The notes under the pieces are model-generated. The model worked only from the letters and a program-made list of their open reading frames with translations. It did not search any database and was not told where the DNA came from. A stretch of DNA of 64,000 nt from assembly GCA_000091205.1 (NCBI GenBank), contig AP006494.2. One strand, given 5' to 3'. This document shows positions 16,993 to 19,398 of this stretch, piece after piece; positions within the stretch are counted from its first letter, which is position 1; each line of letters begins with the position of its first letter. This stretch comes from Cyanidioschyzon merolae (lineage: Eukaryota). The position numbers were made by a program, and so were the translations under genes.

Positions 16993-18183
16993 CACGGCAC
17001 CGCGGAGCACTGGCACGTCCACTTGACGACCGCCACTTCGGACGGTGCGCCCTGACTCGGCCTCCACAGAGAGGCACCCCGGTGCTGCCGCATCGCCCTG
17101 CATCCACAACGGCGGCATGCAGATCGCCCCAGCCAGCGTCGCTGTGTGTGGATCGTCGCGCATGCTCGGATCGCGCGATCCGCTCGCCTTCAATGCGACA
17201 GGTGCTCCAACGCTTTGCCACGTGTCCGTTGCTGAATGCGTGCAGTCGCGATCGCCGTCACGCACGCACGCATGCACACACGCGGGCGTATGGCGGTATT
17301 GAGGCGTTTGCATTGGCGGGCGCTCTTTCTGGCACTGCAGCCGGGTCCAGCGACAGGCACGTGGCTCAGGGAGCAAGTAGTAACGCCTCACCAGCATCGA
17401 GCTTGCGACGTGCAGGAGTGTACGCGGTGCATCGATGGAGACACGCCTACGGACACGTGTGCGACATTGGACTCTGGCAGTGAGCTGGCCTAGTCAGAAT
17501 GCACTGACGGAGAGATGCAAATGCACACCTATAAAGCATGGATTTCGGCGAGCAACCAGGAGCATTTACAGTACACCACCCGAAAGATCCATGCAAGCAA
17601 ACATTTCGCAGATACTCTGGGCGGCAACCAGGAAAACTGGACGTACACACATCCAGATCATACACACAGACCTGCGTCCCGCCCAAGGCCCTAGCTCGAG
17701 ACCCCCGCCGAGTCGCCACCGCTGAGCCAGCGCGTGTGCCACCGCCGCCCCGGATCGTCCAGACGCTCGTAGCCGTGCGAGCCGAAGCAATCCCGCTGGG
17801 CCTGAACCAGCTGGCTTGAGCGCAGCACCGCCTGTCGATACGTGTCGTAGTACGAAAGGCTCGCGGTCAGCGCCGGCGCCGGCACACCCAGCGATGCCGC
17901 CAGCCCGACAACACGCCTCCAGCTCTCGTGGCGACGTCCAATCTCCGCAGCCAGGTCAGCGTCCAGCAGCAGATTCGGCAGGCTGGGGTCTCGTCGAAAA
18001 GCGCCCTCGATCCGCTCAAGCAGCTGTGCCCGAATAATGCAGCCGCCCTTCCAGATGCGCGCAAGCTCCCCGAGATCCAGCGACCAGCCCTGCTCGCAGC
18101 TCGCTCGATGCAGCAGACTGAGACCCTGCGCGTAGCTACAGAGCTTGCTGCAGAAGAGTGCGTCCTCAATAGCAGCGATCAAC
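16993..18183. repeat. Segmental duplication copy A, at least 1.2 kb and about 98% identical to 62810..64000. It covers the 3' part of the 6PGDH gene plus about 700 bp downstream. The true extent is unknown because copy B runs off the window.
   Basis: Base-by-base comparison of 16993-18183 against 62810-64000 shows only scattered mismatches. Matching ORFs have near-identical translations (16860..17483 vs 62758..63324; 17435..17725 vs 63252..63542). The duplicated block contains a (CACG/CATG)n-like microsatellite. Confidence 0.85.
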
Positions 18184-19398
18184 GCTCGCTCCGCCGATGC
18201 ATCCGAACGCGACGTCGACGCCGACGCTCGTACAGAGCCAGACGCTAGGGCGGCGACACGCTCGGGAGCTGTGTCCGGTCCAGTTTCAGCTACAGCGCCA
18301 GCGGCTCCGGGTGAGGCACCGGCGGCCGCCAACTCGGAGGCGTGCCCCGTACCCGAGAGCCGCTCGGGTCCGCGGAGCACCCGCGACGCACGCTCGCGCT
18401 CGTCCTTCCGCGCTGAGAGGAAGCGCCCGTCGAGCGCGGCAGCGATGGTCGGCACCGCCACGCCCCGCCGCAGTGCCTCCGTCATCGTCCACAGGCCAGT
18501 GCCCTTGCTCTCACTCCGGTCGAGGATTTGGTCTACGAGCGCTGGCGCCGACGCTGCCGACGAAGACGTGTCAGGCACGCGTAGAATGCGCGCGGTAATC
18601 TCCACGAGGAAGCTTTGCAGGGCGCCCGCGTTCCACGAGGCAAATACTTCCGCAGCCGCCATCGCATCCAAGCCAACGGCACCCCGAAGCAGGTCGTATG
18701 CCTCGCCGATCAGCTGCATATCGCCGTACTCGATCCCGTTGTGCACCATCTTCACATAGTTCCCCGAGCCGCCCGGCCCAATGTAGGTAACGCACGGCCC
18801 AGAGCCGGGTACCTGCGCCGCAACCTGCTCCAGCAGCGGCGCAAGCTGCTGGTACGCCTCCCGTGAACCGCCCGGCATCAGGGAAGGCCCGTAGCGCGCA
18901 CCCTCCTCGCCACCGCTTACAGCCCATGCCTACGTACAGGAGGCCGCGTGCCGCGACAGACGCAGCACGTCGCTCCGTATTCTCGTACCACTCGTTGCCG
19001 CCGTCCACGATGATGTCGCCCGGCTCCAGAACCTCAGCCAGCGCCTCGACGGTTGCGTCGACTGCGCTCCCCGCCTTCACCAGCAGGAATACCCGCCGCG
19101 GACGCTTCAGCGAAAGCGCAAACGACCGCAGGTCCGCAAAGCCGGTAACGCTCCCGCTGGCTGTCGTGTCATCTGCCGCGAGCTCCCGCTGCGCCCGCTC
19201 AACAGTCTCCGCCGTCCGCGCATACGTTCGATTGTACACAGAGACTCGCCAGCCGTGCGACGCTAGGTTCAGTGCAAAGTTCTGACCCATGACCGCAAGG
19301 CCAATGACACCCGCGTCCGATATTGCGCGACCTGCAGGATGTGACGACGCGCTTTCCCGGACAGCACTCGACGGAGACGAGCCCTCCGTCGCAGACAT
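17691..19398 (-). pseudogene. 6-phosphogluconate dehydrogenase (decarboxylating), disrupted by a single-base insertion (+1 frameshift) near 18912. It is either a pseudogene or an assembly error, and it also carries a roughly 45-aa low-complexity insertion.
   Basis: The N-terminal part (from the Met at 19398) reads GVIGLAVMGQNFALNLASHGWRVSVYNRT...YVGMG. It continues in another frame as [18 protein letters not shown]...NGIEYGDMQLIGEAY...SKGTGLWT...FCSKLCSYAQG...DCFGSHGYERLD. The junction ggcatgggcTgtaagcggtggcgag shows one extra T relative to the expected [10 protein letters not shown]. Confidence 0.7.

What the first reader, a model, noticed from the sequence alone, without database searches (positions are those of the whole stretch)
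16993..19398. Segmental duplication carrying 6-phosphogluconate dehydrogenase, with one copy frameshifted
At least 1.19 kb (16993-18183) is duplicated at 62810-64000 with about 98% identity. The block covers the last about 165 codons of a 6PGDH gene plus about 700 bp downstream. The copy continues past the window edge, so the duplication may include the whole gene. The fully visible copy (17691..19398) has a single extra T in ggcatgggcTgtaagcgg that shifts the frame at the invariant [17 protein letters not shown] motif. It is therefore either a recent pseudogenisation of one paralogue or an assembly/consensus error. Both copies also carry a low-complexity insertion of about 45 aa (AAAGASPGAAGAVAETG...RASASTSRSDAS) before the conserved FCSKLCSYAQG block. 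The two copies differ by three amino acids in the visible part, so they are true paralogues rather than an assembly duplication.
Basis: seen in the sequence. Interest (0 to 1): 0.5.

Follow-up and report, generated by a model that had tools for sequence, protein, structure and literature searches.

The report
Repeated 5S rRNA–6PGDH unit, one copy broken

Summary
Window 16993-18183 equals 62810-64000 (1191 nt, 12 mismatches, no gaps, 99.0%). Copy A (17691-19617, minus strand) has one extra base at 18921 inside the [11 protein letters not shown] motif.

Exact protein look-ups place the window on C. merolae 10D chromosome 12. The broken copy is already annotated as split models CML036C (BAM80667.1, 395 aa) and CML037C. 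Copy B is the intact CML059C. A third intact copy, CMM231C, lies on chromosome 13.

New here:
- The repeat is a 3.75 kb unit (16993-20744) that also carries a 5S rRNA gene (20249-20369). The alga is reported to have only three 5S genes.
- Cyanidiococcus has two such units at the same syntenic positions, about 98% alike to each other. They are only about 79% identical to Cyanidioschyzon in the coding sequence, and the flanks cannot be aligned.
- The duplication is therefore old and is kept uniform by gene conversion.

I could not decide whether the extra base is a real young pseudogenising mutation or a reference error; I lean towards real. All copies share the same N-terminal extension, so there is no plastid/cytosol split. 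This is an ordinary kind of feature in an annotated genome, with modest interest.

The parts
16993..20744 (.). Repeat unit shared by copy A and copy B (3,752 bp): 698 nt of 3' flank, the 6PGDH gene, the intergenic promoter region, the 5S rRNA gene, and 375 nt beyond it.
   Evidence: The lower boundary comes from the self-BLAST. The upper boundary comes from four independent contigs (L106, L107, L108, L112) and L008. In these the SWIRM flank of copy B joins homology to the window exactly at 20744.
16064..21205 (.). Longer segment (at least 5.1 kb) shared between copy A and the chromosome-13 copy C (CMM231C locus). The upper end is a lower bound, because contig L001 ends there.
   Evidence: L001 carries the orthologues of IPMDH BAM81072 and HAD hydrolase BAM81071 next to 6PGDH. 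It aligns at 98.1% with window 21205-16064 and then diverges. L095, L096, L100 and L101 break at the same 16064.
17691..19617 (-). 6PGDH copy A, 641 codons plus one extra base. It is disrupted by a frameshift and annotated as two genes, CML036C and CML037C.
   Evidence: Orthogroup OG0000035 lists CML036C, CML037C, CML059C and CMM231C (PMC13353863 supplement).
18921..18921 (-). The extra T (A on the plus strand) that shifts the frame inside [21 protein letters not shown].
   Evidence: It is absent from L001 and L008, and it is the only 1-nt indel in about 4.7 kb of alignment.
17691..18878 (-). C-terminal ORF of 395 aa, identical to BAM80667.1 (CML036C). It contains only the 6PGD C-terminal domain.
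   Evidence: Exact match to BAM80667.1. Pfam PF00393 only.
18571..19617 (-). N-terminal ORF, presumably CML037C. It has the transit-peptide-like extension and a truncated NAD-binding domain, followed by out-of-frame residues.
   Evidence: Pfam PF03446 covers positions 3-118 of 161 only. The exact 348-aa sequence was not found in the protein collection, so the annotated limits of CML037C are not verified.
19318..19617 (-). N-terminal extension of about 100 residues with no counterpart in solved 6PGDH structures. It is a probable plastid transit peptide and is shared by all three copies.
   Evidence: Alignment to PDB 2w90 begins at residue 101. The N-termini of A, P0123 and P0124 are the same apart from residues 68 and 77. 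[quoted passage not shown]
18183..18362 (-). Low-complexity Ala/Ser/Gly-rich insertion, residues about 419-478. That is about 50 residues more than in bacterial and animal 6PGDH.
   Evidence: In the alignment to 2w90, query residues 419-478 face chain residues 310-319. Cyanidiococcus has an insertion at the same place with a different sequence, and Cyanidium has only a short one.
20249..20369 (+). 5S rRNA gene, divergent from 6PGDH copy A. It has a TATA-like element about 22-30 nt upstream and a TTTT run immediately downstream. It carries a U-U mismatch in helix I.
   Evidence: Rfam RF00001, 91.1 bits against a gathering score of 38. The mismatch is absent from the four other units examined.
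19973..19999 (.). Trinucleotide (GCT)n tract, 27 nt longer in 10D copy A than in L001 and L008.
62810..64000 (-). Visible part of copy B (CML059C, BAM80682.1): 3' flank 62810-63507, stop codon 63508-63510, and the last 163 codons up to the window edge.
   Evidence: UvrC (60473-62677) is identical to BAM80681.1 and the next accession, BAM80682.1, is the intact 641-aa 6PGDH. Contigs L002-L007 end 0-240 nt into this repeat.

Best explanation
The locus is copy A of a three-member family of dispersed repeat units in Cyanidioschyzon merolae 10D. Each unit carries a 5S rRNA gene and, divergently, a gene for 6-phosphogluconate dehydrogenase with a plastid-type N-terminal extension.

Copies A and B lie 45.8 kb apart in direct orientation on chromosome 12. 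Copy C lies on chromosome 13 and was probably copied from A, because C shares A's flanks beyond the limits of the A/B homology.

The A/B pair arose before Cyanidioschyzon and Cyanidiococcus separated. Since then ectopic gene conversion has kept the two copies about 99% identical across 3.75 kb, including non-coding flanks. This step is inferred.

In the 10D reference, copy A carries a one-base insertion that splits the enzyme. The NADP-binding half and the C-terminal half are on separate reading frames, and the substrate-binding signature VSGGEEGA is destroyed. Copy A therefore most likely makes no active enzyme, and the two intact copies supply the function. I take the insertion to be a real, very young pseudogenising mutation tolerated because of redundancy. 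This last step is the least secure.
For: Identity of the window: nine window proteins match C. merolae 10D chromosome 12 proteins exactly (BAM80663-BAM80681). They include the truncated 395-aa '6-phosphogluconate dehydrogenase' BAM80667.1.

Three copies: BAM80682.1 sits on the 859,119-bp record and BAM81073.1 on the 866,983-bp record. Both are intact at 641 aa.

Repeat limits: 16993, 20744 and 16064 for the A/C pair.

5S rRNA gene in every unit examined:
- window copy A;
- L001, L008, and Cyanidiococcus positions A and B.
C. merolae is reported to have only three 5S rRNA genes, at separate loci (PMC8504449).

Ancient duplication with concerted evolution:
- Cyanidiococcus has 6PGDH genes between the CML035C and HemD orthologues and between the UvrC and SWIRM orthologues.
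- Its two units are 98.3% identical over 4.25 kb.
- Cyanidioschyzon and Cyanidiococcus coding sequences are only about 79% identical and the flanks do not align.
- Cyanidium has a single 6PGDH, with its 5S gene 8 kb away.

Frameshift:
- The extra base is at 18921.
- It is absent in L001 and L008.
- The 14 related full-length proteins are intact.
- Each ORF retains only one Pfam domain.

Other changes private to 10D copy A fit relaxed constraint:
- Q503H and G507C.
- A helix-I U-U mismatch in its 5S gene.
- Five private substitutions in the 1191-nt shared block, against one in copy B.
Against: - I could not examine independent 10D reads or assemblies. Look-ups of the frameshifted ORFs in other assemblies found nothing, so a base-call error in the Sanger reference is not excluded.
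- Apart from the one base, the gene is undamaged. Copy A is no more divergent at protein level than B and C are from each other (6-7 against 5 differences). That is what an error would also look like.
- The only contig running from copy A's unique flank through the frameshift site (L008) is a mosaic. It carries copy B's upstream flank, so the state of copy A in wild strains is not established.
- That all three 5S genes of 10D lie in these units is inferred from orthologous contigs and a literature count. It was not read from the 10D sequence outside the window.
- The Cyanidiococcus A/B comparison uses two different strains.
Confidence: 0.6

Rival explanations
1. The extra T is a consensus or base-calling error in the 2004/2007 Sanger reference. 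Copy A is then an intact, expressed third 6PGDH gene, and CML036C/CML037C are an annotation artefact of that error.
For: - It is the only disabling change in the gene.
- It is the only 1-nt indel in about 4.7 kb compared with two related contigs.
- No frameshifted allele appears among the cluster members read.
- The 10D gene models were unchanged from 2007 until the 2026 reannotation and are said to contain annotation errors (PMC13353863).
- Three 99%-identical repeats are hard to finish.
Against: - The insertion is not in a homopolymer or an obvious compression context (GGGC-T-GTAAG).
- The genome was finished to '100% complete' standard, and the 2026 orthogroup table (PMC13353863 supplement) still lists CML036C and CML037C as separate genes.
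- Mixing reads from the other copies could not create a novel insertion.
- The same unit has other private changes: two amino-acid replacements and a 5S helix mismatch.
Confidence: 0.33
2. The duplicates are young. Cyanidioschyzon and Cyanidiococcus each duplicated the 6PGDH-5S segment independently and recently, so the 99% identity reflects age rather than gene conversion.
For: High identity with sharp boundaries is what a recent segmental duplication looks like. Copy C on chromosome 13 does appear to be a lineage-specific recent copy, since Cyanidiococcus has only two genes in the orthogroup.
Against: Both genera have the copies at the same two syntenic positions: NAD-binding protein | 6PGDH-5S | HemD, and UvrC | 6PGDH-5S | SWIRM. 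The unit sizes are similar, 3.75 and 4.25 kb. Two independent insertions into the same two intergenic sites are very unlikely.
Confidence: 0.05
3. The split gene is functional. Either the two polypeptides assemble into an active enzyme, or the ribosome shifts frame at the site.
For: Both halves remain open reading frames, and each keeps a recognisable domain.
Against: - The frameshift removes the conserved [14 protein letters not shown] segment. By established structural knowledge of 6PGDH this contributes substrate-binding residues.
- The NAD-binding domain model is matched only to position 118 of 161.
- No slippery sequence is evident at the site.
- Two intact copies exist, so nothing requires this.
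Confidence: 0.02

Closest known systems
Annotated C. merolae 10D genes CML036C/CML037C, CML059C and CMM231C (GenBank BAM80667.1, BAM80682.1, BAM81073.1; orthogroup OG0000035 in PMC13353863)
   Same: It is the same locus. The 395-aa ORF is identical to BAM80667.1, and the neighbours match BAM80663-BAM80681 exactly.
   Different: The annotation treats the two halves as separate protein-coding genes. It does not mark a frameshift or pseudogene. In the papers I could search, it is not linked to the 5S rRNA genes or to concerted evolution.
Concerted evolution of dispersed 5S rDNA and other duplicated genes by ectopic gene conversion (as described for rRNA gene families and yeast or primate paralogues; general knowledge)
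   Same: Paralogues within a species are nearly identical, while orthologous positions in different genera are strongly diverged. Non-coding flanks are homogenised as well.
   Different: There are only two or three dispersed units, not a tandem array. Each unit also carries a protein-coding gene for a metabolic enzyme. Conversion itself was inferred, not observed.
Plant-type (cyanobacterial-origin) plastid 6-phosphogluconate dehydrogenase, Pfam PF03446 + PF00393
   Same: It has the two-domain architecture. It is 50-58% identical to other red-algal and plant chloroplast 6PGDHs and aligns over the whole catalytic core with solved structures.
   Different: It has a roughly 100-residue N-terminal extension and a roughly 50-residue low-complexity insertion shared only with Cyanidiococcus. 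Copy A is frameshifted.
Unitary or young duplicated-gene pseudogenes created by a single frameshift
   Same: There is one disabling indel, no other decay, and redundant intact paralogues.
   Different: The copy sits in a tract subject to gene conversion, which could repair or spread the lesion. The reality of the lesion has not been verified by independent reads.

Membership tests
6-phosphogluconate dehydrogenase, decarboxylating (EC 1.1.1.44) | N-terminal NAD(P)-binding Rossmann domain (PF03446) followed by the 6PGD C-terminal domain (PF00393) in one polypeptide. | tested here: not met
   Copy A as sequenced has the domains on two different ORFs. PF03446 is truncated at position 118 of 161.
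6-phosphogluconate dehydrogenase, decarboxylating (EC 1.1.1.44) | Conserved signature G-x-G-V-S-G-G-E-x-G-A and the K/E catalytic pair in VKMVHNGIEYGDMQ. | tested here: inconclusive
   The catalytic-pair motif is intact in the 395-aa ORF. The signature motif is encoded but interrupted after GMG by the extra base. The roles of these residues come from established structural knowledge, not from a test here.
6-phosphogluconate dehydrogenase, decarboxylating (EC 1.1.1.44) | Enzymatic activity. | not testable with these tools
   Needs an enzyme assay or copy-specific proteomics.
Processed or unprocessed pseudogene | A disabling mutation that is really present in the organism's DNA. | tested here: inconclusive
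   It is present in the reference. No independent 10D reads were accessible, and look-ups of the frameshifted ORFs in other assemblies found nothing.
Processed or unprocessed pseudogene | Signs of relaxed constraint beyond the first lesion. | tested here: inconclusive
   There are two private non-synonymous changes, no private synonymous change in the visible part, and five private substitutions against one in copy B. The numbers are too small for a test.
5S ribosomal RNA gene (Rfam RF00001) | Full-length match to the covariance model above the gathering score. | tested here: met
   91.1 bits against 38, model positions 1-120 of 120.
5S ribosomal RNA gene (Rfam RF00001) | RNA polymerase III terminator (T run) and an upstream promoter element. 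| tested here: met
   TTTT lies directly after the gene, and a TATATA element about 22-30 nt upstream is conserved between Cyanidioschyzon and Cyanidiococcus. Function is inferred from sequence only.
Gene family under concerted evolution (ectopic gene conversion) | Paralogues at orthologous positions in two lineages are more similar within a lineage than between lineages. | tested here: met
   A/B identity is 99.0% in C. merolae and 98.3% in Cyanidiococcus across two strains. Between genera it is about 79% in the coding sequence, with unalignable flanks. Synteny of both positions is shown.
Gene family under concerted evolution (ectopic gene conversion) | Mosaic distribution of variants among copies (conversion tracts). 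| tested here: inconclusive
   Mosaic patterns are seen among the copies and the metagenome variants. Chimeric short-read assembly through the repeat could produce the same patterns, as the L008 case shows.

The most novel reading that the evidence does not exclude
The three 5S rRNA genes of this minimal genome are each physically coupled to a copy of plastid 6PGDH. Selection to keep several identical 5S genes drives gene conversion over the whole 3.75-kb unit, so the 6PGDH copy number and its sequence uniformity are by-products. The ancestral-position copy A in the laboratory strain 10D is really decaying: it has a frameshift in 6PGDH and a helix-I mismatch in its 5S gene. That would be a snapshot of a conversion-maintained unit escaping homogenisation.
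Probability: 0.3. Interest if true: 0.4.

Novelty: already known. Interest (0 to 1): 0.3.

Why it matters
C. merolae 10D is a widely used model alga, valued for its very low gene redundancy.

- **For users of the genome:** CML036C and CML037C are two halves of one disrupted 6PGDH gene. Functional 6PGDH comes from CML059C and CMM231C. The three loci are about 99% identical over several kilobases, which affects read mapping, qPCR, gene targeting and knock-out design.
- **For genome evolution:** each unit carries one of what are probably the alga's only three 5S rRNA genes, and the pair at positions A and B has stayed uniform since before the genus split. This gives a small, tractable case of concerted evolution between dispersed repeats in a eukaryote now known to have meiosis.

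None of this changes current understanding of gene duplication or pseudogene formation.

Tried and rejected
- **Wasted scan.** The scan of metagenome contigs with the 6PGDH protein returned only distant 6PGDH genes at 45-53% identity.
- **Exact look-ups of P0123 and P0124.** The 10D paralogues and the 366-aa frameshifted ORF were not on record in the contig index. I could therefore not fetch the 10D DNA of copies B and C beyond the window, nor independent 10D assemblies.
- **Literature.** Searches for the gene identifiers, and for 5S rRNA together with 6PGDH in C. merolae, found no paper that discusses the locus. Only supplementary tables of PMC13353863 list the genes.
- **Trypanosomatid or apicomplexan origin.** I considered this at first, because of GC content, lack of introns and low-complexity inserts. 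Homology searches rejected it.
- **1-nt or short intron at the GTAAGC after the extra T.** Rejected, because the intact paralogues have the same sequence as coding V-S, and removing it would delete the signature motif.
- **L008 as proof of an intact copy A in a wild strain.** Rejected. L008 joins copy B's upstream flank to copy A's downstream flank, and it switches marker type about 280 nt into the repeat.
- **The 631-nt repeat.** It has no Rfam match at E <= 0.1 and no similarity to the Cyanidiococcus loci.
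Full report
**1. Checking the observation**

A self-comparison of the window finds 16993-18183 repeated at 62810-64000. The repeat is 1191 nt with 12 mismatches and no gaps, 99.0% identity (repeat finder agrees for its capped 300-nt copies). 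To the left of 16993/62810 the two sequences are unrelated.

The block holds the last 164 codons and stop of a minus-strand 6PGDH gene (17691-18183), plus 698 nt of 3' flank. In the coding part all three differences change an amino acid (H/Q, C/G, G/E). The other nine differences lie in the flank.

In the fully visible copy two overlapping ORFs, 18571-19671 and 17691-18878, together encode a 6PGDH. Deleting one T at 18921 (minus strand), in GGCATGGGC-T-GTAAGCGG, restores a single frame reading ...[23 protein letters not shown]....

- The start is probably the ATG at 19617, as in the 641-aa paralogues.
- The low-complexity insertion of the second copy lies beyond the window edge, so it could not have been seen in the window.

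**2. Where the window comes from**

The repaired protein's best matches are red algae of the Cyanidiophyceae: 99% to a cluster containing C. merolae 10D proteins, 70% to Cyanidiococcus and 58% to Cyanidium.

Exact-sequence look-ups show that nine window ORFs are identical to proteins of C. merolae 10D on the 859,119-bp record:
- DnaJ, BAM80663
- NAD-binding protein, BAM80666
- HemD, BAM80669
- PPR protein, BAM80671
- glutamate dehydrogenase, BAM80674
- MINDY, BAM80676
- carbamoyl-phosphate synthase, BAM80678
- UvrC, BAM80681
- the 395-aa ORF 17691-18878, which is BAM80667.1, annotated '6-phosphogluconate dehydrogenase'

The frameshift is therefore in the public reference, and the annotators called the truncated ORF. 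A 2026 reannotation paper lists CML036C, CML037C, CML059C and CMM231C in one 6PGDH orthogroup (PMC13353863 supplement). That shows copy A is carried as two gene models.

Copy B is BAM80682.1 (CML059C), 641 aa and intact, next to UvrC. A third intact copy, BAM81073.1 (CMM231C), is on the 866,983-bp record.

**3. Anatomy of the repeat family**

*Copy C.* Contig L001, about 98% identical to 10D, carries a 6PGDH followed by 3-isopropylmalate dehydrogenase and a HAD hydrolase. Their 10D counterparts are BAM81072 and BAM81071, the neighbours of CMM231C. L001 aligns with window 21205-16064 and then diverges. Four further contigs of that locus break at the same 16064. Copies A and C therefore share at least 5.1 kb.

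*Copy B, downstream side.* Contigs running from carbamoyl-phosphate synthase to UvrC end 0-240 nt inside the repeat at 62810.

*Copy B, upstream side.* Four independent contigs with the SWIRM gene (the CML061C orthologue) join homology to the window exactly at 20744. The A/B unit is thus 16993-20744, 3,752 bp.

*Origin of copy C.* C shares A's flanks on both sides beyond the A/B limits, and A sits at the position conserved in other genera. C was therefore probably copied from A. This is an inference.

*L008.* The 33-kb contig L008 joins B's upstream flank to A's downstream flank, and it changes marker type about 280 nt into the repeat. I treat it as an assembly chimera, not as evidence about copy A in the wild.

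**4. A 5S rRNA gene is part of the unit**

Rfam finds one family in the whole window: a full-length 5S rRNA gene at 20249-20369 on the plus strand (91.1 bits; gathering score 38). It lies 630 nt upstream of 6PGDH copy A and points away from it.

The same gene, in the same relative position, is present in L001, in L008, and in both Cyanidiococcus units. A TATA-like element upstream and a TTTT run downstream are conserved between the genera.

A review states that C. merolae has only three 5S rRNA genes, at separate loci (PMC8504449). Three units each with a 5S gene suggests that these are those three genes. I could read this directly only for copy A.

**5. Age of the duplication**

*Cyanidiococcus, position A.* In strain 8.1.23 F7 a 6PGDH lies between HemD and the NAD-binding protein/COG3/SBF/DnaJ genes (L093). 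This matches copy A's position exactly.

*Cyanidiococcus, position B.* In another strain a second 6PGDH lies between UvrC and SWIRM (L094). The expression table for strain NIES-4659 lists both genes, g1797 and g1810, at these positions with identical protein-abundance values.

*Identity within and between genera.* The two Cyanidiococcus units align over 4.25 kb at 98.3%. Between the genera the coding sequence is only about 79% identical. The flanks do not align except for the 5S gene, which is 88% identical over 173 nt.

*Cyanidium.* It has a single 6PGDH, convergent with UvrC. Its 5S gene is 8 kb away, next to HemD.

The simplest reading is as follows. The 5S-6PGDH junction and its duplication arose after Cyanidium branched off and before Cyanidioschyzon and Cyanidiococcus split. 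Gene conversion has since kept the copies alike within each lineage. Independent duplications into the same two intergenic sites would be needed otherwise.

**6. The frameshift**

The insertion separates the NAD-binding domain, now matched only to position 118 of 161, from the C-terminal domain. It removes the [14 protein letters not shown] segment. From established structural knowledge of 6PGDH, neither half should be active alone.

Evidence that it is real:
- It is not in a homopolymer.
- Mixing reads of the other copies could not create it.
- The reference was finished to a high standard, and the split models persist.
- The same unit has other private changes: Q503H and G507C in the enzyme, a U-U mismatch in helix I of its 5S gene, and five private substitutions in the 1191-nt block against one in copy B.

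Evidence that it may be an error:
- It is the only lesion.
- It is the only 1-nt indel in about 4.7 kb compared with two relatives.
- No frameshifted allele appears among the related proteins.
- No independent 10D data could be consulted.

I put the probabilities at about 0.6 real and 0.33 error.

**7.

All three copies start with the same roughly 100-residue extension, which has no counterpart in solved structures. [quoted passage not shown] The copies are therefore not plastid and cytosolic isoforms.

The low-complexity insertion, about 50 residues at positions 419-478, faces a 10-residue loop in Geobacillus 6PGDH. It is shared in position, but not in sequence, with Cyanidiococcus.

**8. Verdict**

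This is a real feature of an annotated reference genome and of a known kind: duplicated genes, one disabled, homogenised by gene conversion. The additions made here are the 5S rRNA gene in the unit, the exact unit boundaries, the third copy's origin from A, and the evidence that the duplication is old. They are useful to people working with this alga but not surprising in principle. Interest 0.3.

Noticed in passing
window 47482-48112 and 59455-60085: A second direct repeat of 631 nt at 98.6% identity, 11,973 nt apart. One copy lies between MINDY and carbamoyl-phosphate synthase, the other between ABC1 kinase and UvrC. Both copies are also present in related metagenome contigs. The ORFs inside look non-genuine (Arg-rich). 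There is no Rfam match at E <= 0.1 and no similarity to the Cyanidiococcus loci.
   Followed up: partly
window 4050-6584; L106 149-2688; L008 5-1552: A block of about 2.5 kb between DnaJ and the SBF transporter contains an ORF at 4744-5784. In related contigs the corresponding product has a DUF8286 hit on record. The block has a 74.5%-identical paralogue just beyond the SWIRM gene on the far side of copy B, in inverted orientation. An older inverted duplication therefore seems to bracket the whole region from SBF to SWIRM. The exact translation from the first ATG (4744-5784) was not found in the protein collection, so it may be unannotated in the 2007 gene set.
   Followed up: partly
window 6480-6665, 16682-16869, 53618-53731; also 16357-16526 and 53220-53390: Short dispersed repeats of about 74-78% identity. 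Two of them lie in the 16064-16993 stretch that copy A shares with copy C but not with copy B, close to the duplication boundaries.
   Followed up: no
window 33629-33731: A near-perfect palindrome: two 47-nt arms around a 9-nt centre. It lies in the intergenic region upstream of the epimerase-like gene.
   Followed up: no
window 54305-54578: Two tandem copies of a 137-nt unit at 95% identity, between carbamoyl-phosphate synthase and the ABC1 kinase. It is also present in related contigs.
   Followed up: no
window 19973-19999 and 20182-20184: Between 6PGDH copy A and the 5S gene, a (GCT)n tract is 27 nt longer in 10D than in two related contigs, and there is a 3-nt indel.
   Followed up: no
window 60473-62677: The nuclear genome encodes a bacterial-type UvrC excinuclease whose closest relatives outside red algae are cyanobacterial. 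It is convergent with 6PGDH in Cyanidioschyzon, Cyanidiococcus and Cyanidium.
   Followed up: no
L094 1097-4948 (Cyanidiococcus assembly GCA_013995675.1): Carbamoyl-phosphate synthase is called as two fragments (246 and 604 aa) in this assembly. It is a single protein of about 1316 aa in C. merolae and Cyanidium. This suggests frameshift errors in that draft assembly.
   Followed up: no
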